In this document: piece after piece, positions 13,605 to 52,378 of the stretch
Position numbering within the stretch: position 1 is the stretch's first letter
Layout: the number at the start of each line of letters is the position of its first letter
IMG/VR virus record: IMGVR_UViG_3300036901_000095
Location: 1 to 59,277 of that record
DNA: 59,277 nucleotides
Reading direction: 5' to 3' (one strand)
Origin: a virus
Lineage: Duplodnaviria > Caudoviricetes
The notes under the pieces: model-generated
Told to the model about the DNA's origin: nothing
Seen by the model: only the letters and a program-made list of their open reading frames with translations
Databases searched by the model: none
Translations under genes and position numbers: made by a program

Positions 13605-15455
13605 CTAAGCTTGCAACTTTGGTTTACGGCCCCTCTTCGCCGGAATCTTCTTGACGGTGTCCTCGGTCTCGGATTTGTTGTTGGCGTCGTCTCGTTGATC
13701 CATTTCGTTATCGACTTGACGTGCGAATGAGGGACTGACCCCAGCCATTATCAACAGGTCATCACGAATGTTCTGATTTCTTTTTTCCAAATTGAGCACA
13801 CGGGTGAAGCAGTGTTTGATTACCTGAGTTAGGAAACTAAACGGATTACTAGACCTAGATTCATCAAATTGTAGACCTACAGCGGCGAGATGTACTAAAG
13901 CGTGGGCTCGCATTTCGTCGACATACGTGTTTCCTGTCAGATAGATGTAGCCGTTTCTTCTGGCCATGAATGAGCCATACTCGGTCTCCGGACACCAAAC
14001 GCGTCCCTGATAGTCAACGGTCGGTACGTTTTGATGGTGTTCTTTTCCTCTACCGCTTCCACTTCTTTTGCCACCGTGGAAGTCGATGTTCTCGACGTTC
14101 GAGCTATTGGTCCGGGAAAAGATGTTCATCTGATAAATCTGGGTCGGCTTGCCAGACGATTCGATGTCTTGCAGCTTAGCGGAGACCCGATATCCGGCTA
14201 ACGTGCAAAGTGCCGCGAAGGCATCGACGTGTCTGATATCCTTTTGGCAGTACCTGCGTGACACTGTTTTGCACTCCTGTATGGTCCGCCAGCCATCGGC
14301 GTCGATCATCGTGTTGATCAGCAACTCTCTTTGGGCTTGTGACAATGAGAGAATGAACGGCATCGACATGATCCTGTCTCCAGCGACCGCCATGATTTGC
14401 TCAGATATCGCTTTCGACAGATTGAAAGCGACTGTCGGTTTACCGTTCTCTCGATTGTCCCTGTGAAACTCGCTGTATTGTACATCCAAGGTATTCAAGC
14501 AGGCCCTAATCCGCTCCGCGTAGTCGCCCTCGTTCTGAAAGATCGTCATGCGGCAATAATTTCGTTCTTCCGAGAAATAGTAATTGCCCTCGGTCACGAT
14601 CCAGCCGATGAGTTCCACGAAGGCATCACTGTACGTAGTGCTACCATCCTCAACATACTCTCCGGTAAGGATGATCTTATCCTTTTCCAGGAGAAGCTCG
14701 ACCTCCTTCAATCCCTTGTCAGTGACGAACTTATGATGCGGTGTCACCAATGCATCCATGCCAACAACGGTCAGATGAAACATCTTGCCATCGTAATCAT
14801 CCCTGAAGATGGATTTGATGCGAGACCATTTCAGTTTGTCATCATCATACGAGAGGATGATATCATCCTCCGTGATGTCATTGATACCAAGCCAGCCGCG
14901 TTGGGTTAGAGCCTCGGTTTCCTGATCGACACAATATCCTCTCCAGTTTCCTCGATGCGAATACTGTTCCGCGAGCAACATGAACATCTGCGCCAGTCGG
15001 TTCGACATCTTCCCATCGACGAGGCTAAATCGACCATTATGCAAGCCATCACGCCAGTGTGAGCGACCCACCTCGACCGGGTAACCATCGACCACGATGT
15101 AGTGACTAAATGGCGGGAAGTTCGGCTTCGTCACCCATTCCCCTCTGCTCGATTTCTTGCGCCGTTTCTCATCCGTTTCATGCGGCAAGTGTGCGTCGGT
15201 CATCACACGAAACACGACACTTTCAGGATTGATCGTCGAAGGATCAACGATGTTGGTCTTGCTCGACAGCTTGGCTGCCTTGATGAGGATGGTCGCCGCT
15301 AGCAGTTCCGGTGTGAGTAGATCGAGCGATGAGATCACGGCGTCGAAACTTGAATACTCAGGTGAAATAAAATAACAGAAACTTGCTTTGCTGCGGCCAA
15401 TCTCGACCAATAGTTCTTTATTCGAAATGTACTTGACTTTAACCGGAGGAATCAT
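13605..15455 (-). CDS. gp55: late-transcription sigma factor (T4 gp55-like), intein-containing
   Basis: KYISNKELL; exteins join as YSHRGNWRGY|TYVDEMRAHAL...QFDESRSSNPFSFLTQ...EKRNQNIRD. Confidence 0.88.
   Translation of the reverse strand: MIPPVKVKYISNKELLVEIGRSKASFCYFISPEYSSFDAVISSLDLLTPELLAATILIKAAKLSSKTNIVDPSTINPESVVFRVMTDAHLPHETDEKRRKKSSRGEWVTKPNFPPFSHYIVVDGYPVEVGRSHWRDGLHNGRFSLVDGKMSNRLAQMFMLLAEQYSHRGNWRGYCVDQETEALTQRGWLGINDITEDDIILSYDDDKLKWSRIKSIFRDDYDGKMFHLTVVGMDALVTPHHKFVTDKGLKEVELLLEKDKIILTGEYVEDGSTTYSDAFVELIGWIVTEGNYYFSEERNYCRMTIFQNEGDYAERIRACLNTLDVQYSEFHRDNRENGKPTVAFNLSKAISEQIMAVAGDRIMSMPFILSLSQAQRELLINTMIDADGWRTIQECKTVSRRYCQKDIRHVDAFAALCTLAGYRVSAKLQDIESSGKPTQIYQMNIFSRTNSSNVENIDFHGGKRSGSGRGKEHHQNVPTVDYQGRVWCPETEYGSFMARRNGYIYLTGNTYVDEMRAHALVHLAAVGLQFDESRSSNPFSFLTQVIKHCFTRVLNLEKRNQNIRDDLLIMAGVSPSFARQVDNEMDQRDDANNKSETEDTVKKIPAKRGRKPKLQA
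13929..14933 (-). mobile_element. intein (335 aa) with LAGLIDADG homing endonuclease
   Basis: Starts CVDQETEALTQRGW, block B VTPHHKF, LIGWIVTEG and MIDADG motifs, ends VWCPET...YLTGN followed by Thr+1. Confidence 0.92.
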
Positions 15456-15544
15456 GATTTTCGTTTCTTTTTTATGGTGAACTTCAACATAACAGAAACG
15501 CGCCTGAGAATACAACCCCATGAAATATCTGGCTTTAATTCCAC

Positions 15545-15552
15545 CATAAATA
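15545..15552 (+). promoter_or_regulatory. T4-type late promoter
   Basis: CATAAATA before the baseplate operon. Equivalent boxes: 5002(-), 22144, 26709, 31108(-), 31167, 33223, 38346(-), 40627, 45721, 47388(-), 48945(-), 51401(-), 51921(-), 55344, 56245, 58454. Confidence 0.75.
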
Positions 15553-15578
15553 GCAAGATACAATGGGATTAAGAACAG

Positions 15579-16517
15579 ATGAGTGGTTTTCAATCTGACA
15601 GCGCGGCATCAGCGCCATCGACTGGATTTCTTGGCGGCGCGCAATCCGACAGTGCCGCATCGGCTCCGGTCACGCAGGTACCGGTCGCTGGCAACACGGT
15701 GGCGGGCGCGGCGTCGCCCATTGGCAGTGCCACCTCGGGTAATCCCATAACCGGCAGTGCGATCACTGCTTCTCCCGACATGCGCATCAGACTGGCGGCG
15801 TTGAACCCTGCGGCAGTTTATCAGAATTCTCCCATTATGTCAATTTTAAGTCAGACCAATGGCATGTTATTTCCTTACACACCATCGATCACGGTGACGC
15901 AAGGCGTGGATTACGCAGCCATACAATTGGTACACTCTAACACTGATTATCAGGCGTATACCCGTACACCATCGGTAAAAATCTCGATAAATGGCAAATT
16001 CACTGTGCAGAATCAGCGCGAAGGTCAGTACGCGATGGCGGCGATTCATTTTCTCCGAACGGTGTCGAAATCTTACTTCGGTGAGAAGGACGCGATGACG
16101 ACCAATTCAGCGGCGAGTCCTTTGACGAACACCGCCAATACGCCAATCAGCGGTCTCATGTCGCCATCGAGCAATGCTGGCGGAGGCAACGCCGGACTGC
16201 CACCTCCTGTTCTGTTGTTCAGTGGTTACGGAAACTTAATGTTCAATAACTTAAGAGTCATTCTGACTAACCATACATACACCTTCGATGAAACCATGGA
16301 CACGGTTCCGGTGATTATTTCTTCACAGGGTTTCAACAGTCTTGGCGCGCTGCTGGGCGGAGCGACATCGGGAGGGATCGTGCGTCTGCCAGCCATGTTC
16401 ACGCTATCCTGTGAACTGACCGTGATACAGACACCGAAACGCATGAGAAAAGTCTTCAGTTTCGAGGATTTCGCCAACGGAAAACTGATGAACAGCACTG
16501 ACGGAGGATGGATTTAA
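15579..16517 (+). CDS. baseplate/tail-tube-initiator-like virion protein
   Basis: FPYTPSI...IHFLRTVSK...PPPVLLFSGYG motifs seen in myophage baseplate operons; late promoter. Confidence 0.65.
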   Translation: MSGFQSDSAASAPSTGFLGGAQSDSAASAPVTQVPVAGNTVAGAASPIGSATSGNPITGSAITASPDMRIRLAALNPAAVYQNSPIMSILSQTNGMLFPYTPSITVTQGVDYAAIQLVHSNTDYQAYTRTPSVKISINGKFTVQNQREGQYAMAAIHFLRTVSKSYFGEKDAMTTNSAASPLTNTANTPISGLMSPSSNAGGGNAGLPPPVLLFSGYGNLMFNNLRVILTNHTYTFDETMDTVPVIISSQGFNSLGALLGGATSGGIVRLPAMFTLSCELTVIQTPKRMRKVFSFEDFANGKLMNSTDGGWI

Positions 16518-19657: not shown

Positions 19658-22141
19658 ATGACTTTAAATAAATCCAATCCGGCATTCACGCCAAAATCAA
19701 ACAGCAGCATCGCGCTGTTGCCCTATCCTTATATTGGTCTCGTAAAGAACAACACCGATTCACAAAACATGGGTCGACTCGGGGTGTGGATTCCCGAGCT
19801 TTGCGGCGATCCGCTGGACCAGGGTTCGTGGATCATTTGTAGTTATTGTTCTCCTTTCGCTGGCGCGACAAACCTCAATGAACTTGAAAACTATCAGGAC
19901 CCGAACACGCAGATCGTCAGCCAGCAATCCTATGGCTGGGTGGGAATCCCGCCTGACCTCAACAACGAGGTCATGGTGGTGTTCGCTTGTGGAGACATCA
20001 ACAAGGCTTATTGGGTTGGTTGCACATATCAACAAAACATGAACCACATGGTGCCGGGTATTTCCGTTGATACCACGTACCCAAATCAACAGGATATCGA
20101 TGGTGCGCCATTACCGACCATTGTTCCGGTCATGGAATATAACAAAGCGGGTGTGACTGGGTCTCCGAACAACGTGAATCGTCCGGTGTTTCAACCGCTG
20201 GCCACCGGTTTGATGCGGGAAGGCTTGTTGAACGATTTGGAACGTGGCGCGGCCTCGACCTCGATGCGTCGTGAAGCACCGCCGCTGATGTCGGGCTGGT
20301 TATCGCCACGCGGGAACACTATCCACATCGATGACAACGCGCAGGATGAATTCATCCGCTTTCGCACTCGTTCCGGTACCCAAATTTTAATCCACGAGAC
20401 AACCGGTTACATCTACATGAATTCGAAGAACGGTAATTCATGGTTCGAGATTTCCGATTCCGGGATCAATGGTTACACATCCGGTCCATTGAGCATGCGC
20501 GCGGTTGGCGACATCAATCTCATAGCCGGTGGCAACATGAATCTGGACGCCGCCAACATCAACATGCGCGCCACCAATCAGATCAACATGGGCGCGGTTA
20601 CCATCCAGATCGGTGCCAGTGGCGCACTGACCATGTCGGCTGGCACCAACATCAATTCAGCGGCGGCGGGCATCTGGGCGCGATCAGGCAGCACCATTCA
20701 GGACAACGCCGGAATCGTCCCGCCCGCGACTCCACCAACCAGCGTCACGGTCTCGGACACGAAGGCGATCAGTCCCACGGGCATCTGGACCTATGGTGCG
20801 ACCACCTTGAATTCCATCGCCAGTGTCATTCCCATGCACGAACCATGGCCGGGGCATCCGAATGCCAATATTCCACCCTTTCCAACAACGATTGTTCCCC
20901 AGCCCAATGTCGGGGGGCAGGGCAACGGCTCAAACGGTGGCGGGACGACCTACGCCCCTAACGCAGGCTCAGCCCCCGGATCATCCGGATCATCCACGCC
21001 ATCTAATGGTGCGATTGCCCCATCGAATCCGGCGACCAATTCATGCACGTTCGGCATCCCGAACACGGCTCCTATTTCCACGGTCAATTTCAACGCGATT
21101 CAGACCGCGTCACAACAGGTCAGCGGACTCCCCGCCAATCCTTTCGCCACCCTGCTGGCGTTCGCCAATATTGAGTCAACCTTTAACTCGTCCGCAGGAC
21201 CGGTATCAGGTCCAGGCGCGAAGGGACTGTTTCAGTTTATCGATGGAACATGGGACTGGATCGTCAGTCAGGCTGGCGCGCAATACGGTGTTCCCACTAC
21301 CAGTGGAGCGGTGTTCAATCCTGGCTATAATGCGCTGATGGGCGCGGCATACATGGTAAGTAACATGAAGGTACTCTCGAATAATGGATTAACCCCGGAT
21401 GCCGGAAATCTGTATCTCCTGCATTTCTTTGGACCGGGCGGCGGACAACTTGGAACCAGGGCCGCTGGAGGAATCACGTTTCTGAAGACTCTTGCCACTC
21501 AACCGTCCGGTATAGCAGCGTCATTATTCCCTAATCAGGCGGCTGGTGCGATCAACCACAATAATTTTTACAATCGCGCCAATAACGCTCCTTACACGAT
21601 GCAACAGGTTCATGACAATCTCAGAACCATCATCAACGACAAAGTCACGGCTTATCAGACGCAGGTAGGTTTGCCCGCGCCATGTGACAGAGTAAAAGGC
21701 AATACCACTGGGGTGTCCAACAAAATCAATCAGTCAAGTCCACAGGCAGCCGTCGCCAGCGCGCAAGGACTGACCGGACGATATTGGGGACGCAATGAGG
21801 AATGCGTTTCGTTGGTTCAATCGCCGATTCTCAATTTACAGAATACCTCGACATGGACCAAGGGTAGTAGTGATTTGGTCGCCAATCCGCCGCCTCCAGG
21901 AACAGCCATCGCGACCTTCGCGCCGAATGGTACATACACCAACCAGTATGGTCTGTCGCACGCGGCGATTTATCTCGGCCCAGCGGACAGCGGTAATGGC
22001 ATCAAAGTACTCGAACAATCCAATGGCCATCCGGCGCATATCAATCAATATCAGGTCGGCAATTCGCCTGGTTACGGCGCATGGGTCAAGGGCGTGGAGC
22101 AAGACGCGCGTAACTATTCCGTCGTCAACTACAACAACTGA
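19658..22141 (+). CDS. gp5: baseplate central spike (gp5/VgrG-like) with lytic transglycosylase and C-terminal amidase domains
   Basis: OB fold GLVKNNTD..MGRL.VWIP...PPDLNNEVMVVF; SLT IESTFN...AKGLFQFIDGTW; ECVSLVQ...GTAIATF...SHAAIYLG. Confidence 0.85.
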   Translation: MTLNKSNPAFTPKSNSSIALLPYPYIGLVKNNTDSQNMGRLGVWIPELCGDPLDQGSWIICSYCSPFAGATNLNELENYQDPNTQIVSQQSYGWVGIPPDLNNEVMVVFACGDINKAYWVGCTYQQNMNHMVPGISVDTTYPNQQDIDGAPLPTIVPVMEYNKAGVTGSPNNVNRPVFQPLATGLMREGLLNDLERGAASTSMRREAPPLMSGWLSPRGNTIHIDDNAQDEFIRFRTRSGTQILIHETTGYIYMNSKNGNSWFEISDSGINGYTSGPLSMRAVGDINLIAGGNMNLDAANINMRATNQINMGAVTIQIGASGALTMSAGTNINSAAAGIWARSGSTIQDNAGIVPPATPPTSVTVSDTKAISPTGIWTYGATTLNSIASVIPMHEPWPGHPNANIPPFPTTIVPQPNVGGQGNGSNGGGTTYAPNAGSAPGSSGSSTPSNGAIAPSNPATNSCTFGIPNTAPISTVNFNAIQTASQQVSGLPANPFATLLAFANIESTFNSSAGPVSGPGAKGLFQFIDGTWDWIVSQAGAQYGVPTTSGAVFNPGYNALMGAAYMVSNMKVLSNNGLTPDAGNLYLLHFFGPGGGQLGTRAAGGITFLKTLATQPSGIAASLFPNQAAGAINHNNFYNRANNAPYTMQQVHDNLRTIINDKVTAYQTQVGLPAPCDRVKGNTTGVSNKINQSSPQAAVASAQGLTGRYWGRNEECVSLVQSPILNLQNTSTWTKGSSDLVANPPPPGTAIATFAPNGTYTNQYGLSHAAIYLGPADSGNGIKVLEQSNGHPAHINQYQVGNSPGYGAWVKGVEQDARNYSVVNYNN

Positions 22142-26706: not shown

Positions 26707-26716
26707 AGTATAAATA

Positions 26717-26865
26717 GAATTGTCGATGAAGACGACCTGATAAAGATCGTAATCCGCCCCTTGTGGGCGTTGTTGCCCTAAGGGGAAATCTTCAAAGACA
26801 CGGACTAAAACTTAGCTACGGCTTCCATCATCTTCGGAGGGTAAAGATTCATGTGTCTTTGCCAA
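26717..26865 (+). ncRNA. candidate structured non-coding RNA under a late promoter
   Basis: TATAAATA at 26709 with no downstream + ORF; stems GTCG/CGAC, CGCCC/GGGCG, AAAGACAC/GTGTCTTT, CTTCC/GGAGG. Confidence 0.4.
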
Positions 26866-31083: not shown

Positions 31084-31179
31084 GATATGTCCTTCAGGAA
31101 TATCCAATATTTATACCCGCTAACGTTGGGCTAAAGCAACGTTATAAACCATGGATTTAAATCAGCCATAAATACTGGT

Positions 31180-31608
31180 ATGCCAGTCATTCCGCCTCCC
31201 AAACGATACTTCGTTGGTTTCAGTACCCAGAATTCCGCGAAAACTCATGTCACCACGTTGTATGACATCGACCTGATCAACGTCGATTTGATGACCGCTT
31301 TTCAGACACGGGTTGGCGAGCGCCTCATGCGGCCGGATTACGGCTGTCTGTTGTGGAATTATCTGATGGAGCCATGGACCACTGAATTATCCAACGACAT
31401 CATCGCCGAAGTGAACCGCATCTGCGGCCTGGACAGTCGGGTGGTGATCGTGACCTCCCAGGTGTATCAGCAGAATTTTGGTTTCCAGATCAACATGACA
31501 CTGCAATATTTGCCGTGGCTGGTCATCCAGTCGTTCACCGTCAACTTTGAAAATAATGAAACCATCTATTTTGATTCCACGCCAAATACAACTAATTTGA
31601 TAGGATAA
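31180..31608 (+). CDS. gp25: baseplate wedge subunit (gp25-like)
   Basis: TRVGERLMRPDYGC..W..LMEP, DSRV. Confidence 0.88.
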   Translation: MPVIPPPKRYFVGFSTQNSAKTHVTTLYDIDLINVDLMTAFQTRVGERLMRPDYGCLLWNYLMEPWTTELSNDIIAEVNRICGLDSRVVIVTSQVYQQNFGFQINMTLQYLPWLVIQSFTVNFENNETIYFDSTPNTTNLIG

Positions 31609-40353: not shown

Positions 40354-40661
40354 GCGCCAGCCCTCAGACGCCGCATAGTCGTCCGCGCTCTCTTGCTGGC
40401 TTTCGACGGCAGCTTGAGCCAAGAATTGTGCGTCGCGTTTCCCGAATACAGGAACCATCCACGTCCGGACGGAACGTCGGCGACTGGCAGCCACGCGGCC
40501 AACAGGCCAGGGAAGCGAACGGATTTCATAACCATGTCCTTACGCGATTGCATGACACAGGAATACCATGGAATCGGGTTTTGTCAAGATTCTCAGGGAG
40601 AGAAATGTTTGAATAGATGGATGGCCGATAAATAAGCCAATGAATGAACCGAGGTCGTCCA

Positions 40662-45760: not shown

Positions 45761-46174
45761 ATGATTTGTTCATCATGTGAAAAAGACCTAAACGAAACTG
45801 AGTTCTACATAAAAAAGGAAAAAGGAAAGGAAAAAATTGGACACCAAAGCTATTGTAAAAAATGCTTTAATAAATTCTGTGTAGAGAGATGGGTAAAAAG
45901 AAAAAAGGATGCCATTGAGTATAAAGGCGGAAAGTGCGAATTATGCGGGTACAAAAAGTACTATGGTGCATTGGTTTTTCACCATGTTGATCCGATGCAA
46001 AAAGATTTTGAATGGACTCATCTTCGGAAAAAAAGCTGGGATAAAATAAAAGCAGAATTGGATAAATGTATGATGCTATGTTCCAATTGTCACTCAGAAA
46101 TACACGCCAAGGACGCGACAGGTTTCGACATCGAGGCGGGTATGGCGTTGCCGACAGGTCTCGAACCTGCATAA
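45761..46174 (+). CDS. HNH homing endonuclease (Zn-finger type)
   Basis: CSSC, YCKKC, KGGKCELCGY, FHHVDP, KCMMLCSNCHSEIH; AT-rich; CATAAATA at 45721. Confidence 0.88.
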   Translation: MICSSCEKDLNETEFYIKKEKGKEKIGHQSYCKKCFNKFCVERWVKRKKDAIEYKGGKCELCGYKKYYGALVFHHVDPMQKDFEWTHLRKKSWDKIKAELDKCMMLCSNCHSEIHAKDATGFDIEAGMALPTGLEPA

Positions 46175-46221
46175 AAAGCCGGATTAGAACTCCGGTGCCT
46201 CTCCAATTAGGCTACGGCAAC
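46143..46221 (-). tRNA. tRNA-Arg(TCT)
   Basis: GTTGCCG/CGGCAAC acceptor, CCGGA-GTTCTAA-TCCGG, A20, G73, encoded CCA; own TTGACA-N17-TAGGTT promoter. Confidence 0.85.
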
Positions 46222-46333
46222 ACAACTTCAACCTACGTCATTTCACAAGAACTGTCAACATCCGAGAGGCTAAATAAACGGGTAAATTTTCGCCAACTTC
46301 TGTATAGTGATCAAAACATAGTGAGAAGTTCAT

Positions 46334-46888
46334 ATGATCGAGAACGAAGAAAAAATCGTCCTGAGATACTCGCCTGAACTCGAACACGACCTGATAACCA
46401 AATATGGTTGGCATGACATCAGGCAAGGCTACTTCAACAGCAATAACCGAATTCGCGAGATCACCCATCAGTCTGGTCGTATGAACCATGTTTTCTCATT
46501 CAAGCAGCGGCTGCCAAACGGGCATAACATCGAGATCGAATCAGATGAGATCACCAAACAGGACTTTGACCATATCTGGCAGTTTACCGAGAACCGGCTG
46601 ATCAAGCGGCGGGTCACATGCTTCATCACCATCGACGATCCGAAAAATCATGAGGGACATTCGGCGATCCGGTGGGACATTGACTTTCCACAATGGGAGA
46701 GCGGCGTAAAGCATTTCGGCATGGCGGAGGTGGAAATGCCGGTCTACATGGAGAAGCCGCCATTCATTCTCGCGGATATCGCGCCTCACGTAGTCTATGA
46801 AGTGCCGCGATCCGACAACCGATTCTCAGCCAAGAAGCTCAGTGACGAAAAACATGCCAGGAAAATGGCGAAAGAGCTTAGCTTATGA
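46334..46888 (+). CDS. CYTH (triphosphate tunnel metalloenzyme) domain protein
   Basis: IENEEK, IRQGY, RIRE, IEIE, KRR, WDIDF, AEVEM. Confidence 0.8.
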   Translation: MIENEEKIVLRYSPELEHDLITKYGWHDIRQGYFNSNNRIREITHQSGRMNHVFSFKQRLPNGHNIEIESDEITKQDFDHIWQFTENRLIKRRVTCFITIDDPKNHEGHSAIRWDIDFPQWESGVKHFGMAEVEMPVYMEKPPFILADIAPHVVYEVPRSDNRFSAKKLSDEKHARKMAKELSL

Positions 46889-47599: not shown

Positions 47600-48142
47600 T
47601 TGACGACAACGATTACCCCAATCCAAGCGTTCCAGGCGGTCTCAGAACTTTCCTGCTTGGCGATGTGCCCGATGATCCCGCCACCTAAGCTGCGGGTCCC
47701 CTACGAGGATGGCAGTGGGTATCTTGAGATCAATCCATTCGACATCGATTATAGCGAGCAGATATTCACGCACATCAACCACGATGATGGCGTGCAACGT
47801 CATTACTACATCAACAAGTTGTATGAGATGGCCGTCGCTGATCCGGTGGGGTTCCCGCTGCAAAACATAGAACTGGAGGCGTCGGTCGCCTCTCACATTT
47901 CGCGCACCAAGGGTATCGACAGAAAACATGTCAAGAACATGTCGCCAAAACGAGCCATGGAACCTGGTCTGATATTGCTGTTTGATGAACAGTTGCTCAC
48001 CGTCATCGACGGCAACCATCGCTATCTGAAACGACTGAGCATGGGACGCACCCACATGCGTTTCTACGTGTTCACCGAGGCGGAAGCCAGACCGGCGAAA
48101 CTGATCCTGCCGGATGCGTTTGGAAGACATATAGTCAAATAA
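47600..48142 (+). CDS. ParB/Srx-like domain protein (start uncertain)
   Basis: PGLIL...VIDGNHRY. Confidence 0.6.
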   Translation: MTTTITPIQAFQAVSELSCLAMCPMIPPPKLRVPYEDGSGYLEINPFDIDYSEQIFTHINHDDGVQRHYYINKLYEMAVADPVGFPLQNIELEASVASHISRTKGIDRKHVKNMSPKRAMEPGLILLFDEQLLTVIDGNHRYLKRLSMGRTHMRFYVFTEAEARPAKLILPDAFGRHIVK

Positions 48143-48145
48143 ATT

Positions 48146-48236
48146 TGGCGCAACCGGTGGGACTCGAACCCACAACGGCCTTTCGGCACCCTCCAGCTTC
48201 GGAGGCTGGCGCTCTGTCCATTTGAGCTACGGCTAC
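48146..48236 (-). tRNA. tRNA-Arg(CCG) with long variable arm
   Basis: GTAGCCG/CGGTTGC; CCAGC-CTCCGAA-GCTGG; 19-nt variable region; GTGGG-TTCGAGT-CCCAC; CCA. Confidence 0.85.
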
Positions 48237-48613
48237 GTCATCAAACCTCTGGCGATGGCGGCATGTCTGGCGATGGTCAGTTCAAGATCACCTTCGTGGC
48301 TCAGCGGCATTCCACTTTTATAGGCGTCCGGACGGTCACTCCATCGTGCGAGAACGGTGGAACCAACGCCACCTCGCGGACAGTAGTAGAGGTCAAAATT
48401 GTCGTGGTGACCGAGGAACACGCATTGTGGGCAATCGTTGGCGTACCGTGGTGAAATCATCACCTTCTCCATGGCGACTTTCATATCATTCAAGACCGCC
48501 CGCATGTCATCGTCAAGTTTCTGCCGGTCGGATCGCGGATCGAGAGGCGGACTGACCGGAAACCAGTTGAACGCCTGCGCCGCGCCTCTGAGGAAATCTC
48601 GCCATTTGGTCAT
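48233..48613 (-). CDS. hypothetical protein between tRNA genes
   Basis: DCPQCVFLG...DLYYC...TVLARW motif. Confidence 0.6.
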   Translation of the reverse strand: MTKWRDFLRGAAQAFNWFPVSPPLDPRSDRQKLDDDMRAVLNDMKVAMEKVMISPRYANDCPQCVFLGHHDNFDLYYCPRGGVGSTVLARWSDRPDAYKSGMPLSHEGDLELTIARHAAIARGLMT

Positions 48614-48617
48614 TGGT

Positions 48618-48693
48618 TGGTGCCAGTTGCAGGGATCGAACCCACGACATCCCCATTACGGGTGGGGTGCTCTACCAACTGAGCTAAACTGGC
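48618..48693 (-). tRNA. tRNA-Thr(CGT)
   Basis: GCCAGTT/AACTGGC; CCCCA-CCCGTAA-TGGGG; A73; CCA. Confidence 0.88.
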
Positions 48694-48745
48694 CATGAAC
48701 CCAAAATTGTTCGATGATTTAAGTTGAAAAGGGATGGATACGATT

Positions 48746-48822
48746 TGGGGTCCTCGGAGAGATTTGAACTCCCAGCCTTGGCGTCCGTAGCGCCACGCTC
48801 TGTCCAGTTGAGCTACGAGGAC
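48746..48822 (-). tRNA. tRNA-Arg(ACG)
   Basis: GTCCTCG/CGAGGAC; TGGCG-CTACGGA-CGCCA; A20; CCA. Confidence 0.9.
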
Positions 48823-48861
48823 ATGCCAGAAACGGCGATTCCTCACAGATGAGAATGCCCC

Positions 48862-48939
48862 TTAAAGCGTGATTCTCCTCGACCGTCGTCGGATGACGAC
48901 AGGAACGATGGGACCAAATGAGGAAGCAGACATAGACAT
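48862..48939 (-). CDS. putative leader peptide MSMSASSFGPIVPVVIRRRSRRITL
   Basis: ATG at the predicted +1; run of rare Arg codons; 39 nt upstream of tRNA-Arg(ACG). Confidence 0.5.
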   Translation of the reverse strand: MSMSASSFGPIVPVVIRRRSRRITL

Positions 48940-48944
48940 GATCG

Positions 48945-48975
48945 TATTTATAAGACAAGGGCCGGAGAGTGTCAA
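48945..48975 (-). promoter_or_regulatory. overlapping sigma70 and T4-late promoter of the tRNA operon
   Basis: TTGACA (48970-48975)-N17-TATAAA; the -10 box is also TATAAATA. Confidence 0.75.
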
Positions 48976-49275
48976 GCATCAAACGAAAAAATCCTCCAGG
49001 GCGAGGCCAGCCGCCTTGAGCAGTCCTGACCTGGCCATCTCCTGATTGGGAAAGTGTCCGACCATCTCGCCGGTCGGGATGGTCTGGATGAAGGCGGCAC
49101 AGGTATCTTGGCCTTCCTCGAACGGGTAAAGCGGAACGATTTTCCCAATGTAGATTTTGTTGAGATAGAGCGAGTTCGCTTTCCAAACATAATGCATCAT
49201 GAATTTTTCCTCCGATTTGAAGTTTACATTGCTTAAAAGCGTGGTTCAAGGCTATATAGAGGCATGACGTAACTT

Positions 49276-49341
49276 CTCCACTTAGCACAAATCCAATCAC
49301 GGATTTGGCACTCGCCTGAACATCAGGCGGGAATAGTGGAG
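49276..49341 (+). promoter_or_regulatory. three-way-junction 5' UTR structure sequestering the SD
   Basis: CTCCACT/AGTGGAG encloses CAAATCC/GGATTTG and CTCGCCTGA/TCAGGCGGG. Confidence 0.45.
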
Positions 49342-49533: not shown

Positions 49534-51375
49534 TCAATTGCCGCCGAAGGCACCGATATTCCAGCCGCTGCCGGTTGAGTTCGGTTCGCTGGTACCATAG
49601 AAATCGAGCACGGGGTTGATGGTCGTCACGCTGAGCGAGGAAGGCGCAACGCCGACACCGAGCAATGGCGATCCACCTCCCAGTGCGTAGCCGGAAGGCA
49701 ATGTCTGATTACCGGTGGCGTTCCAGGACACCGTGCCAGCGGGCACGGTTCCCACGAAGCCAGGATTGCTTGTCGTGCCTCCAGTTTCTGCTGTTCGGGT
49801 TTCCCATTGCGCCAATGAGCCACTGGGCGCGGAAGCCGAGCCACAGTTCGGATCGACTCTGACGGTGGTGCCCCCATTGATCGCGAAATAGCTGTTGTTG
49901 CGCCACGTTCCAACCGGAGTCAGCGCCGGGTTACAGGTGACCGCGTAATTTCCCGAGGTGTAGGCGAAGATATTGTCGGCGATGACCGATCCGGCACCGA
50001 TGCCATTGGAGCCGTTCTGAGTCGCGAGCACGAGCGCGCCACGTCCAGCAAGGCTTGAGTTCTGGTAAATGGTATTGCCATAGGCATAGACGACGCAGGC
50101 AGTGCAACCCGTGTTATTGAATGACATTCCACCGAAAAACTCTTGCGGATTATCCTCAACGATGTAGGCGTCATTTTCACTGATGTTGCCGCGATAGGTG
50201 TTGTTGGTCCAGTCACTGGTGACGACTCCCATCCAGCCATAAAGTCCTGCTCCGGCGTTGTTATGGGTGTAATTGTACTCCACCACGCTGTTCGTGGTTG
50301 ATCCATCGAGATCAATTCCGTCGCCGTCACAACCGGTGGTCATGTTGATCGCTGTATTATAAACTTCGTTGCTGGAAATCGTGACATTTGAAACATCCTG
50401 GGTTTCTATTCCCGATGTGCCGCCGCATTGCGTGGTCTGATTGTATCCGCTGTCATGCACGATGTTGTTCGTGATCAGTATCGTGCCACTGTGAGAATGG
50501 ACTATGTTCATGCCTTCACCGCCGAACACATTCAGAAACGATGGCCGACCGCCGAAATTCGAAAGCACGTTGCCAGAGACAATAATGTTTCCGGTTGATC
50601 CGTTGATCTGCACACCGTCATCATCTAGCGCCGCTGTCGTCAGTCCATGCAGCACGTTGTCGGCGATGACGACATTGCCGCTCGAATCAGTGCGGGTGGC
50701 CGAGGTGATGTCTCCGCCGCCAATCGTCTCACCGTTGGCGACGAAAAATCCACCGATGTCATTCCCGTTCACCGATCCGGTCGACGCACCGGTCACATAG
50801 ACGCCAGCGGTGGTGCAGTTAGCGCCAGCGCCACTTGGACAGGTGCCTGATATGCCAGAGCGGATGGTGAGATTCTGAACGACGAAACCGTTGACCGAAT
50901 TCACCAGGACAGTGGAACTGATGTCTCCCCCGGTGTTGGACTGAAGAATCGCGTTGCCTGTGCCATAGGATTGCACGACTATTGGATTGTTTGGCGAGGC
51001 ACCAGTAACATTCACGGTCGATGGAGTCGGGGAGCAAATCGAACACGAATTGACTGTGCTTAAGACGAGATTTCCGGAGAAAGTCTGCCCACCATTGAAG
51101 TTAATGCATTGACCAGCCGTGAAACTGGAGAAACTGCTGACATGCGCGATGGTTTGCCATGCGGTCGCGGGGGACAGTCCGTTCGCTGAATCGGAACCAG
51201 AATTTGACACATAGTATTGCGTACCCACGCAAGTGGAGGTTGGCGGGACGCTCATTTGCGCGGCAAAACCCGCTGGCAGTCCGATTTGCGCGCTTGCTCT
51301 CTCGACGGGCAGTACCGATAATGATAATGATGCCGTAATCATCACAATCGCGATGACGGCCAATTTCCTAAACAT
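49534..51375 (-). CDS. secreted right-handed parallel beta-helix (pectin-lyase-like) protein
   Basis: Signal peptide; YYVSNSGSDSANGLSPATAWQTI; Asn-ladder repeats; DGDGIDLD; late promoter at 51401. Confidence 0.8.
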   Translation of the reverse strand: MFRKLAVIAIVMITASLSLSVLPVERASAQIGLPAGFAAQMSVPPTSTCVGTQYYVSNSGSDSANGLSPATAWQTIAHVSSFSSFTAGQCINFNGGQTFSGNLVLSTVNSCSICSPTPSTVNVTGASPNNPIVVQSYGTGNAILQSNTGGDISSTVLVNSVNGFVVQNLTIRSGISGTCPSGAGANCTTAGVYVTGASTGSVNGNDIGGFFVANGETIGGGDITSATRTDSSGNVVIADNVLHGLTTAALDDDGVQINGSTGNIIVSGNVLSNFGGRPSFLNVFGGEGMNIVHSHSGTILITNNIVHDSGYNQTTQCGGTSGIETQDVSNVTISSNEVYNTAINMTTGCDGDGIDLDGSTTNSVVEYNYTHNNAGAGLYGWMGVVTSDWTNNTYRGNISENDAYIVEDNPQEFFGGMSFNNTGCTACVVYAYGNTIYQNSSLAGRGALVLATQNGSNGIGAGSVIADNIFAYTSGNYAVTCNPALTPVGTWRNNSYFAINGGTTVRVDPNCGSASAPSGSLAQWETRTAETGGTTSNPGFVGTVPAGTVSWNATGNQTLPSGYALGGGSPLLGVGVAPSSLSVTTINPVLDFYGTSEPNSTGSGWNIGAFGGN

Positions 51376-51916: not shown

Positions 51917-51941
51917 ACCGTATTTATCAAAAGGAGAGAGT

Positions 51942-52378
51942 GGATCACTGTTTCTATAAGCTGGGTTCTGTCCAGAATCTTTCGATTCCTGTACTGTCAT
52001 TCCTCTTGCCTAAACCGTCGCCGGTCAGGTCTTTGCCCTCAACCCGGAACCATCCCCTGACGATGGGTAGCAAGTTCCCTATTTGAGGTTGCACCCTCTA
52101 TCCTGTCGCCAGCGTTTCACCCCATCTCCTGTGATCAGGCAGTTGGCCGGATTACCTCTAAGTCTTTCGACCTGGCGTTCTCCAGTTTCCTGTCCATGAC
52201 ATGGCGAATATTATCTCCCGAAGGAGTTTCATCCCTTCCTCAGGCGGGTCTCGTCTCTGTGGCCGTGTCTCACCTCTCGGTGGGCAGGTGTTACCTGCTA
52301 AAGTTCGTCAGCGGTGCCCAGACTTTCCTCTCTACCATCATTGCTGATGGCACGAGCGACAATCCAAAACAGTGATCC
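51942..52378 (-). ncRNA. rnpB: RNase P RNA
   Basis: P1 GGATCACTGTTT/AAACAGTGATCC; GAGGAAAGTCTGGGC pairs with ACAGAACCCAGCTTA (compensated P4); P8/P9 hairpins, TGAAAC and GCAA motifs. Confidence 0.92.

What the first reader, a model, noticed from the sequence alone, without database searches (positions are those of the whole stretch)
48823..48975. Candidate ribosome-sensing attenuator controlling a phage tRNA operon
Seen: a dual sigma70/late promoter whose predicted +1 is the A of a leaderless ORF (48939-48862) ending ATC CGA CGA CGG TCG AGG AGA ATC ACG CTT TAA, 39 nt before tRNA-Arg(ACG). All five Arg codons are rare ones. The run matches the phage tRNAs: CGA by Arg(ACG/ICG), CGG by Arg(CCG) and ACG by Thr(CGT) in the same co-oriented cluster, and AGA/AGG by the separately promoted Arg(TCT). 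Mutually exclusive pairings overlap the run: TCCT-GTCGTC/GACGAC-AGGA, GAGAAT/ATTCTC, TTCTCA/TGAGGA and long-range TTCCTCAT/GTGAGGAA. Known: leader-peptide attenuation senses charged tRNA for amino-acid operons; I know of no case regulating phage tRNA genes. No U-tract is present, so output may be Rho termination or 5' processing (the phage encodes RNase P RNA). Inference: a feedback circuit that induces replacement tRNAs when host tRNAs are depleted or cleaved.
Basis: partly seen in the sequence, partly recalled or inferred. Interest (0 to 1): 0.87.

Follow-up and report, generated by a model that had tools for sequence, protein, structure and literature searches.

The report
Cognate-codon leader ORF before phage tRNAs
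A jumbo phage from peat carries, right at the promoter of an arginine and threonine tRNA operon, a tiny gene packed with arginine codons, and related phages have the same arrangement before other tRNAs, which suggests that ribosomes are used to sense tRNA supply and tune tRNA production.

Summary
The described features are present. A TTGACA-N17-TATAAATA promoter is followed after 5 nt by an ATG (48939). This opens a 25-codon ORF ending IRRRSRRITL*, 39 nt before tRNA-Arg(ACG), then Thr(CGT), ORF126 and Arg(CCG). Two sub-claims fail. The Arg codons are not rare in this phage (10-18% each). The hairpins mostly coexist and fold no better than shuffles (z -1.18).

No ortholog of this leader was found. 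However, five related jumbo-phage records (G004-G008) have mini-ORFs rich in the cognate amino acid before Arg, Thr, Glu and Glu/Gly tRNA units. In G004-G006, cognate pairs scored at least 4 of 6 in 4 of 72 regions, against 2 of 1368 non-cognate pairs. There were 0 of 146 cognate cases in other phages.

The geometry late motif-N5-ATG marks leaderless late genes in this clade: 23 of 24 such G005 sites open long ORFs. One orthologous pair (G005/G007) keeps the ORF frame through a 3-nt indel and is 88% identical, against 57-62% in its flanks.

The best reading is a leaderless leader-peptide sensor tied to tRNA genes. Regulation itself is not shown. The output step is unknown: there is no terminator and no Rho-like C-richness.

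The parts
48970..48975 (-). -35 hexamer TTGACA, 17 nt upstream of TATAAA
   Evidence: the only 0-mismatch match to TTGACA-N17-TATAAA in the window. Similar -35 elements occur at 5 of 7 tRNA-leader promoters of the clade, against 0 of 24 ordinary late promoters.
48945..48952 (-). TATAAATA: a T4-type late-promoter motif that also serves as an imperfect -10 (TATAAA)
   Evidence: 3 matches, 0.23 expected. A gp55-like late sigma gene lies at 13605-15593(-). The motif name is recalled knowledge.
48937..48939 (-). ATG 5 nt after the late motif. Its A is the inferred +1 of a leaderless transcript.
   Evidence: HTAAATA-N5-ATG counts against reversed-pattern controls: G004 54 v 3, G005 26 v 0, G006 26 v 3, window 3 v 0. 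In G005, 23 of 24 such sites open ORFs of at least 86 codons. The TSS is not mapped.
48862..48939 (-). 25-codon leader ORF MSMSASSFGPIVPVVIRRRSRRITL plus TAA
48874..48891 (-). Arg run CGA CGA CGG TCG AGG AGA (5 Arg in 6 codons). CGA is read by Arg(ACG), CGG by Arg(CCG), and AGR by Arg(TCT).
48868..48870 (-). ACG (Thr) codon, cognate to the operon's tRNA-Thr(CGT)
   Evidence: One such codon in 25 is not unusual.
48883..48902 (-). Hairpin 1 (8-bp stem, loop AUCC). Its 3' arm is CGA CGA CGG.
48851..48877 (-). Hairpin 2 (GAGAAU/AUUCUC), with the stop codon in its loop
48834..48859 (-). Post-ORF hairpin (UUCUCA-UCUG-UGAGGA, outer GGC/GCC), -9.2 kcal/mol. Its 3' arm can instead pair with leader nt 13-22 (48918-48927).
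   Evidence: A post-ORF hairpin is present in all 7 clade leaders.
48746..48822 (-). tRNA-Arg(ACG), first gene of the unit
48618..48693 (-). tRNA-Thr(CGT)
48233..48613 (-). ORF126, between the tRNAs; no relatives found
48146..48236 (-). tRNA-Arg(CCG), 91 nt with a long variable arm
46143..46221 (-). tRNA-Arg(TCT) with its own TTGACA-N17-TAGGTT promoter (46258-46230), almost no leader and no mini-ORF
51941..52375 (-). Phage-encoded RNase P RNA (class A)
   Evidence: 144.2 bits. An RNA-library contig at 51960-52290 has depth 20.4.

Best explanation
The window is part of an uncultured jumbo phage from peat, related to Atu_ph07 and Phosso. A promoter that combines a host-type -35 with the phage's late motif starts transcription at, or within a base of, the A of ATG 48939. 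The tRNA precursor therefore begins as a leaderless mRNA. Ribosomes translate a 25-codon leader ORF whose last third is a run of Arg codons, plus one ACG Thr codon. These are decoded by the tRNAs encoded just downstream and by the neighbouring Arg(TCT).

The time a ribosome spends on that run depends on the supply of charged cognate tRNA. That time decides whether the stop-proximal leader, including the hairpin that begins 2-6 nt after the stop, is covered or free while the tRNAs are being made. This tunes how much mature tRNA the unit yields. It would be a homeostat for phage tRNA supply.

Shown: the anatomy; the non-random recurrence of cognate-rich mini-ORFs before tRNA units in the clade; the leaderless-start geometry; and conservation of one orthologous leader.

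Inferred: translation, sensing, the sign of the response and the output step. The output step is not a classical intrinsic terminator. It could be processing or folding of the precursor, its stability, or factor-dependent termination.
For: (1) Recurrence. In tRNA regions of G004-G006 (72 upstream regions), ATG mini-ORFs ending 5-120 nt before a tRNA held at least 4 of 6 cognate residues in 4 of 72 cases, against 2 of 1368 non-cognate pairs (Fisher 8e-5). At a threshold of 5, the counts were 2 of 72 against 0 of 1368 (p 0.0025). A label permutation gave p 0.0002. One of the 4 (L125, Ser) I judge unconvincing.

The cases are:
- G005 Arg(TCT)+Arg(CCT): MSHSVHISRRNRRRA*
- G005 Thr(CGT): MRMTVTTRTTTTG*
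- G004 3x Glu(TTC): MFAIREEREER*

Three more were found later:
- G007 Arg pair: MTNPVHISSNRRRA*
- G008 Arg: MNTQARNRLRQSRR*
- G006 Glu-Gly-Glu...RGGSEEREGSAGLLGRV*

(2) Of 20 late-motif sites upstream of tRNAs in the window plus G004-6, 3 have ATG at N5. All 3 are cognate-rich mini-ORFs.

(3) The N5-ATG geometry is that of leaderless late genes in this clade. It is absent from Atu_ph07, Phosso and G011, which also lack such mini-ORFs.

(4) In the G005/G007 orthologs, the mini-ORF is identical in 42 of 48 columns. The only indel is 3 nt, so it is in frame. AGG CGA AGA and the stop are conserved. By comparison, the upstream gene is identical in 63 of 101 columns and tRNA-Arg(TCT) in 42 of 74. 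The post-ORF hairpin keeps pairing through a compensated extra pair. G008 has an Arg-rich ORF of unrelated sequence at the syntenic place.

(5) Codon level. 7 of 10 Arg codons before AGR-reading tRNAs (L117, L176) are AGR, against a 12.6% AGR share in 23 G005 late genes.

(6) The units with such ORFs carry tRNAs of one or two amino acids only.

(7) An RNA-library contig joins leader nt 21-117 to the tRNA (48712-48919).
Against: - No ortholog of this particular leader was found, so its frame and codons could not be tested directly.
- Strain contigs are identical over the leader.
- The statistic was framed after three relatives' cases had been seen.
- The earlier frame-blind test was weak (sum p 0.05; relatives only p 0.09).
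- G007 and G008 ORFs reach only 3 of 6 on that statistic.
- There were 0 of 79 (Atu_ph07, Phosso, G011, G013) and 0 of 67 (six other phage loci) cognate cases.
- Other Arg-led clusters in G004-G006 have roughly 20-100-nt upstream regions after a terminator without any Arg ORF.
- The window's own Arg(TCT) has no mini-ORF.
- There is no U-tract terminator.
- The leader is not C-rich ((C-G)/(C+G) 0.03).
- The fold is no better than shuffles.
- The Arg codons are not rare in the phage.
- RNA-library contigs also cover the promoter (48932-49103) and may be DNA.
- Translation and any regulation are untested.
Confidence: 0.5

Rival explanations
1. The mini-ORF is translated, but it is not a sensor. 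The ribosome on a leaderless 5' end merely protects or stabilises the tRNA precursor. Alternatively, the short basic peptide has a job of its own, for example binding RNA. On this reading, the cognate codons simply make translation of the ORF depend on the phage's own tRNAs.
For: The start geometry argues for translation. Four of the seven peptides are Arg-rich and basic. The G005/G007 leader is conserved even at synonymous sites of non-Arg codons, which suggests constraints beyond codon identity.
Against: Thr-rich and Glu-rich peptides before Thr and Glu tRNAs have nothing in common as peptides except being cognate to the gene downstream. The first four codons differ between G005 and G007, and G008's peptide is unrelated apart from Arg. 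Simple protection does not need cognate codons.
Confidence: 0.2
2. This is an ordinary 117-nt pre-tRNA 5' leader removed by RNase P. The ATG after the promoter and the Arg run are chance, the run being partly a by-product of the GTCGTC/GACGAC hairpin. The relatives' cases are unrelated coincidences.
For: Arg-rich six-codon runs are common in this G+C-rich DNA (18 in the window). The leader has no ortholog, no terminator and no exceptional structure. Most tRNA promoters of the clade (17 of 20) have no ORF at +1. There is no signal outside the clade.
Against: The chance of such a run in this ORF is about 0.004 (my arithmetic). Three of 3 N5-ATG tRNA leaders are cognate-rich. The cognate against non-cognate contrast is 4 of 72 against 2 of 1368. 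The Thr case has 7 Thr in 13 codons. There is an in-frame indel and high conservation in G005/G007.
Confidence: 0.17
3. The element acts at the RNA level only. The codon-like triplets pair directly with tRNA anticodons (T-box-like), or the leader hairpins guide RNase P or RNase E processing. The open frame is incidental.
For: Post-ORF hairpins occur in all seven leaders. One is kept by a compensated change with a fixed 5-nt distance to the tRNA. In thermodynamic models, the G005 Arg leader pairs with the tRNA 5' strand more than 40 of 40 shuffles do.
Against: No Rfam family, T-box included, matches the leader even at E up to 10. The enrichment is at the amino-acid level and uses several different codons, in the frame set by an ATG at the leaderless-start position. 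The leader-tRNA pairing is not better than shuffles in the other four leaders tested, the window included.
Confidence: 0.06

Closest known systems
Ribosome-mediated (leader-peptide) transcription attenuation of amino-acid operons (trp, his, thr, phe, leu, ilv leaders)
   Same: A short ORF lies in the 5' leader. It has a run of codons cognate to what the operon supplies, placed just before the stop, and a hairpin follows. The logic is that ribosome speed reports the supply of charged tRNA (general description as in the abstract of PMC1183508, seen in the listing).
   Different: The downstream genes are tRNAs, not biosynthetic enzymes. There is no hairpin-plus-U-tract terminator and no demonstrable antiterminator switch. 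The ORF is leaderless, starting at the transcript's first base. The element lies in a phage.
tnaC / Rho-dependent leader-peptide control
   Same: A leader ORF whose ribosome occupancy near the stop could decide transcript fate without an intrinsic terminator.
   Different: No C-rich, G-poor tract: the leader (C-G)/(C+G) is 0.03, and -0.14 to 0.12 across the seven leaders. Only 28-39 nt separate the stop from the tRNA in five of the seven leaders (68 and 109 nt in the other two). The comparison with tnaC rests on recalled knowledge.
T-box riboswitch
   Same: It senses a specific tRNA and controls genes of the translation apparatus.
   Different: No Rfam match. There are many different cognate codons in one reading frame rather than one specifier codon.
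Ordinary bacterial and phage tRNA promoters and leaders
   Same: A strong promoter, a U at -1 and removal of the leader by RNase P. Most tRNA promoters of the clade are of this plain kind, with leaders of 4-186 nt.
   Different: E. coli leaders cited in PMC7049720 (passages read) are 3-22 nt. This one is 117 nt, starts with ATG and is an ORF.
T4-type late promoters with a gp55-like sigma
   Same: The TATAAATA motif, and a late sigma factor encoded in the window.
   Different: In this clade the motif sits exactly 5 nt before the ATG at 15-22% of sites, which implies leaderless late mRNAs. At tRNA leaders it is combined with a -35 element.

Membership tests
Leader-peptide transcription attenuator (trpL/hisL/thrL type) | Short ORF in the 5' leader of the regulated genes | tested here: met
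   A 25-codon ORF at 48939-48862, 39 nt before the first tRNA.
Leader-peptide transcription attenuator (trpL/hisL/thrL type) | Cluster of regulatory codons cognate to the regulated function, close to the stop | tested here: met
   5 Arg in 6 codons, ending 3 codons before the stop. The same holds in 6 related leaders, where the run ends 0-3 codons before the stop.
Leader-peptide transcription attenuator (trpL/hisL/thrL type) | The ORF is translated | tested here: inconclusive
   There is no SD. However, the ATG sits at the leaderless-start position used by 23 of 24 G005 late genes. No ribosome or TSS data exist.
Leader-peptide transcription attenuator (trpL/hisL/thrL type) | Intrinsic terminator (G+C-rich hairpin plus U-tract) between the ORF and the genes | tested here: not met
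   No terminator-like site lies in 48823-48939. The post-ORF hairpin is followed by UCGCCGUUUCUGGCAU.
Leader-peptide transcription attenuator (trpL/hisL/thrL type) | Mutually exclusive antiterminator and terminator pairings | tested here: inconclusive
   One competing pair exists: UGAGGAA can pair with UUCUCA or with UUCCUCA. However, the MFE holds most stems together, and z is -1.18.
Leader-peptide transcription attenuator (trpL/hisL/thrL type) | Regulated genes are amino-acid biosynthesis or aminoacylation genes | tested here: not met
   Downstream are three tRNAs and an ORF of unknown function.
Rho-dependent leader control (tnaC-like) | C-rich, G-poor Rho loading site in or after the leader ORF | tested here: not met
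   The leader has C 31 and G 29.
T-box riboswitch | Match to the T-box structure and sequence model | tested here: not met
   cmscan of 48000-49300 at E up to 10 found only the tRNAs and chance hits outside the leader.
T4-type late promoter | TATAAATA motif and a gp55-like late sigma factor | tested here: met
   (phrog_234 4.7e-17, phrog_12791 2.6e-65).
Sigma-70 promoter | TTGACA, a 16-18-nt spacer, and TATAAT with A at position 2 and T at position 6 | tested here: inconclusive
   11 of 12 positions match, but the last position of the -10 is A, so the scan did not list it.
Leaderless mRNA | Transcript 5' end at the A of the start codon | not testable with these tools
   Only Logan contigs were available, and these cannot show RNA ends. 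The geometry is inferred.

The most novel reading that the evidence does not exclude
A clade of soil and peat jumbo phages that makes leaderless late mRNAs has evolved leaderless leader peptides, rich in the cognate codons, in front of single-amino-acid tRNA units (Arg, Thr, Glu, Glu/Gly). These act as ribosome-based sensors of charged-tRNA supply. They set the yield of phage tRNAs through a step other than an intrinsic terminator, such as folding, processing or stability of the precursor. This would be the first attenuation-like control of tRNA genes, and a way for a phage to replace tRNAs that the host lacks or destroys.
Probability: 0.45. Interest if true: 0.9.

Novelty: new variant of a known kind. 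Interest (0 to 1): 0.8.

Why it matters
Phage tRNA genes are usually treated as constitutive cargo. A cis-acting sensor that couples tRNA output to decoding of the matching codons would show that phages regulate their tRNA supply on demand. It would extend leader-peptide attenuation from amino-acid operons to tRNA genes. It would also give a simple sequence signature, promoter then ATG then cognate run then hairpin then tRNA, for finding such control in other genomes.

It bears on current work on phage tRNAs as countermeasures to tRNA-cleaving defences. It also exposes a phage clade with widespread leaderless late mRNAs.

Five full-text searches found no report of leader-peptide control of tRNA genes. 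I read only listings, abstracts and passages from two papers. Supplements were not available.

Tried and rejected
Orthologs of the leader:
- The flanking 73-aa and 126-aa ORFs found no relatives in viral contigs or in metagenome contigs (126-aa ORF only).
- A 27-nt tRNA-Arg pattern found nothing in viral contigs.
- DNA searches of ten related records gave only tRNA matches.
- The three closest relatives (60-62% wedge identity) have no tRNAs and no shared genes in the fetched halves of their contigs (one side of the wedge gene), and one search found no tRNAs in the whole records.
- Homologues of the 613-aa protein in metagenomes are not followed by tRNAs.
- tRNA patterns from G005 hit only G005.
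- A tRNA-Arg(CCT) pattern added only unrelated phages.
- The aaRS-like neighbour found only G005 and G007.
- Wedge searches of genome contigs gave one 16-kb contig.

Strain variation: the contigs of runs X3 and X5 are identical over the leader. The diverged pieces of X11 that were listed do not cover it. 52 differences and 69 pieces were not shown. A part without RNA cover (48920-48931) means nothing.

Classical terminator: none.

Rho loading site: no C excess.

Leader against tRNA 'anti-fold'. Models suggested that the ORF's 5' part pairs with the tRNA 5' strand and that a ribosome at the first cognate codon relieves this. Shuffled leaders do the same in four of five cases. I therefore drop it, except as a lead for G005 L117. 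The natural-leader control planned was not run.

Rare-codon idea: not borne out in the phage's own usage.

E. coli pheU/pheV as a possible precedent (a recollection): their leaders are 3-4 nt, so this is no precedent.

Full report
WHAT THE WINDOW IS. The window is a whole IMG/VR virus record of 59,277 bases that CheckV rates 13% complete. It encodes a T4-type baseplate wedge protein that is about 40% identical to those of Sinorhizobium phage Phosso and Agrobacterium phage Atu_ph07. It also encodes a gp55-like late sigma factor, an RNase P RNA and four tRNAs. Closer relatives, with 45-62% wedge identity, are IMG/VR records. I call them by their handles G001-G008, and three of them are 415-561 kb long. 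The DNA is held by peat and permafrost metagenome runs of many studies.

THE OBSERVATION.
- TTGACA at 48975-48970, then a 17-nt spacer, then TATAAATA at 48952-48945.
- Five bases later, ATG at 48939.
- The ORF MSMSASSFGPIVPVVIRRRSRRITL*, with stop at 48864-48862.
- After 39 nt, tRNA-Arg(ACG), followed by Thr(CGT), a 126-codon ORF and Arg(CCG).
- Arg(TCT), 2.6 kb further on, with its own TTGACA-N17-TAGGTT promoter and almost no leader.
- No terminator-like site in the leader.

Two statements do not hold. First, the Arg codons are not rare in the phage's own genes: CGA 17%, CGG 18%, AGA 12% and AGG 10% of 999 Arg codons in 69 ORFs, and ACG is 30% of Thr codons. Second, the pairings are mostly compatible with one another. 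The 117-nt leader folds no better than shuffled sequence (-35.6 kcal/mol, z -1.18, 25 of 200 shuffles as good). No Rfam family matches the leader. Runs of at least 5 Arg in 6 codons occur 18 times in the six frames of the window. On its own, the run in this ORF has a chance of roughly 0.004 by my arithmetic. That is notable but not decisive.

NO ORTHOLOG, LITTLE STRAIN OR RNA INFORMATION. Searches with the flanking ORFs, the tRNA, the whole locus and the upstream 613-aa protein found no second copy of this leader. Contigs of two other DNA runs are identical over it (X3 at 48602-49032 and X5 at 48785-48988, both with 0 differences). One RNA-library run has a contig that joins leader and tRNA (48712-48919). 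It has another across the promoter (48932-49103) and a deeper one on the RNase P RNA (depth 20.4). Contigs cannot show ends, and DNA carry-over is possible.

THE SAME DESIGN IN RELATIVES. I collected the tRNA regions of G004, G005 and G006, which hold 144 ARAGORN tRNAs. I asked how many residues cognate to each tRNA occur in any six-codon window upstream.

A frame-blind count over 72 regions (69 from the relatives plus 3 from the window) gave three regions with 5 of 6:
- the window's Arg;
- G005 Arg(TCT)+Arg(CCT), preceded by MSHSVHISRRNRRRA*;
- G005 Thr(CGT), preceded by MRMTVTTRTTTTG* (7 Thr in 13 codons).
A fourth, G004 3x Glu(TTC), is preceded by MFAIREEREER*. The overall permutation test was weak at this stage (p 0.05; relatives only 0.09).

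I then restricted the count to ATG mini-ORFs of 6-45 codons that end 5-120 nt before the tRNA. This statistic was framed after I had seen those cases, but it is blind to which amino acid is enriched. Over 72 regions of G004-G006, the result was 4 of 72 cognate against 2 of 1368 non-cognate pairs at 4 of 6 or more (Fisher 8e-5; label permutation p 0.0002). At 5 of 6 or more, it was 2 of 72 against 0 of 1368 (p 0.0025). One of the four (a Ser case with a terminator between the ORF and the tRNA) I do not accept.

Outside the clade there is nothing:
- 0 of 79 regions in Atu_ph07, Phosso, G011 and G013.
- 0 of 67 regions in six unrelated phage loci, where 7 of 1273 non-cognate pairs reached the threshold.

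Not every tRNA unit in the clade has such an ORF. The Arg-led large clusters of G004-G006 have none, nor does the window's Arg(TCT).

NEW LOCI SEEN AFTERWARDS. Two further fragments of the clade hold tRNAs.
- G007 has the ortholog of the G005 Arg unit, with MTNPVHISSNRRRA*.
- G008, at the syntenic place after the same upstream gene, has MNTQARNRLRQSRR*. This is 5 Arg in 14 codons with an unrelated nucleotide sequence.
- G006 has, before Glu(TTC)-Gly(GCC)-Glu(TTC), a 38-codon ORF ending RGGSEEREGSAGLLGRV*.
These three reach only 3 of 6 on the earlier statistic, so they count as descriptive support. In all, 6 of the 7 late-motif-proximal mini-ORFs before tRNAs in the clade are rich in residues cognate to the unit. 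The exception is a 7-codon ORF before tRNA-Pro. The units concerned carry tRNAs for one or two amino acids only.

A START SIGNAL. In all three N5 cases, the ATG lies exactly 5 nt after HTAAATA. That arrangement is greatly enriched in the clade compared with the reversed pattern:
- G004: 54 against 3
- G005: 26 against 0
- G006: 26 against 3
- window: 3 against 0
By my arithmetic, this is about 15-22% of all motif sites. In G005, 23 of the 24 sites other than the two tRNA leaders open ORFs of 86 or more codons. In the window, one of the other two opens a 142-codon ORF. The geometry therefore marks leaderless late genes. It is not enriched in Atu_ph07 (12 against 6), Phosso (3 against 1) or G011 (19 against 10), the genomes without cognate mini-ORFs. 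Of 20 late-motif sites upstream of tRNAs in the window plus G004-G006, three have ATG at N5, and these are exactly the three cognate-rich ORFs.

The tRNA-leader promoters also carry -35-like hexamers (6, 4, 2, 5, 6, 5 and 5 matches of 6). The 24 ordinary G005 late promoters have at most 3 of 6.

CONSERVATION. In the G005/G007 alignment:
- late motif to ATG: identical in 11 of 12 columns;
- mini-ORF with stop: 42 of 48, with one 3-nt in-frame indel and four substitutions, one just upstream of the ATG and three in codons 2-4;
- upstream gene: 63 of 101;
- tRNA-Arg(TCT): 42 of 74;
- tRNA-Arg(CCT): 66 of 76.
The hairpin after the ORF keeps its GCAA loop and its 5-nt distance to the tRNA, and it gains a compensated base pair.

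At the codon level, 7 of 10 Arg codons before AGR-reading tRNAs (G005, G008) are AGA or AGG. Their share in 23 G005 late genes is 12.6% (p 4e-5 against that share, 0.02 against one third).

MECHANISM. The following is shown. The promoter is placed to make the tRNA precursor begin with the ORF's ATG. In all seven leaders the cognate run ends 0-3 codons before the stop. A hairpin (-5.5 to -22 kcal/mol) begins within 0-9 nt after the stop. A ribosome at the stop would therefore cover its 5' arm, while one held at the first cognate codons would not.

The following is inferred. Ribosome dwell time on the run reports charged-tRNA supply and changes the fate of the precursor.

The output step is open:
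- There is no U-tract terminator. G004 has CUUUAU after its hairpin.
- There is no C excess of the kind expected for Rho loading.
- Models in which the ORF's 5' part traps the tRNA 5' strand are not better than shuffled leaders, except in one case.

COMPARISON WITH WHAT IS KNOWN. The element works like leader-peptide attenuators, but it fails two of their defining features, namely the terminator and the kind of regulated genes. It is also not a T-box. I file it as a new variant of that kind of control, not as a member. Five literature searches found no case of leader-peptide control of tRNA genes. I saw listings and abstracts, and passages of PMC3082878 and PMC7049720. Supplements were closed.

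VERDICT. I put 0.5 on the sensor reading, 0.2 on a translated ORF with another role, about 0.17 on chance and 0.06 on an RNA-only element.

Noticed in passing
window 31168-31182(+), 40628-40642(+); G004, G005, G006 genome-wide: The late motif HTAAATA is followed after exactly 5 nt by ATG at about 15-22% of its sites. These ATGs open long ORFs (23 of 24 in G005). This implies widespread leaderless late mRNAs in this jumbo-phage clade, but not in Atu_ph07, Phosso or G011.
   Followed up: partly
window 51941-52375(-): A phage-encoded class A RNase P RNA (144 bits) lies 3 kb from the tRNA unit. The deepest RNA-library contig of the stretch lies on it (51960-52290, depth 20.4).
   Followed up: no
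window 48146-48236(-): tRNA-Arg(CCG) is 91 nt long with a long variable arm, which is unusual for an Arg tRNA. The stop of ORF126 overlaps its first bases.
   Followed up: no
window 26709-26860(+): The third TATAAATA of the window is followed by GAATTGT, as at two G004 tRNA promoters, and by no real ORF. The next 139 nt fold with z -1.82 (6 of 200 shuffles as good). This may be a small RNA.
   Followed up: partly
L180 8075-8908 (G007); L156 15-578 (G005): A 277-aa protein with weak matches to class II aminoacyl-tRNA synthetase cores (PF01409, 1.1e-4) lies two small genes upstream of the Arg(TCT)-Arg(CCT) unit. It is 91% identical between the two phages.
   Followed up: partly
L176 about 363-451 (G008): Between the Arg-rich mini-ORF and tRNA-Arg(CCT) lies a tRNA-like stretch. 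It has a TCT anticodon loop and a T arm but no clear D arm, and neither ARAGORN nor Rfam calls it. It is a decayed or aberrant tRNA-Arg.
   Followed up: no
L109 3792-3865 (G004); L122 1386-1473 (G005): ARAGORN calls tRNAs with a CTA anticodon (labelled Pyl). These could be amber-suppressor tRNAs in the relatives.
   Followed up: no
L187 about 20280-20452 (Ralstonia phage RsoM2USA): The mini-ORF MGEMPVRVWILRRRSSGRYKA ends 32 nt before tRNA-Arg(TCT). It is below my threshold (3 of 6) but resembles the clade's Arg leaders.
   Followed up: no
window 46326-46669 and 49927-50180: Run X11 (permafrost) holds contigs 85-87% identical to these stretches beside identical ones. A diverged relative of this phage therefore exists and could supply the missing ortholog of the leader.
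   Followed up: no
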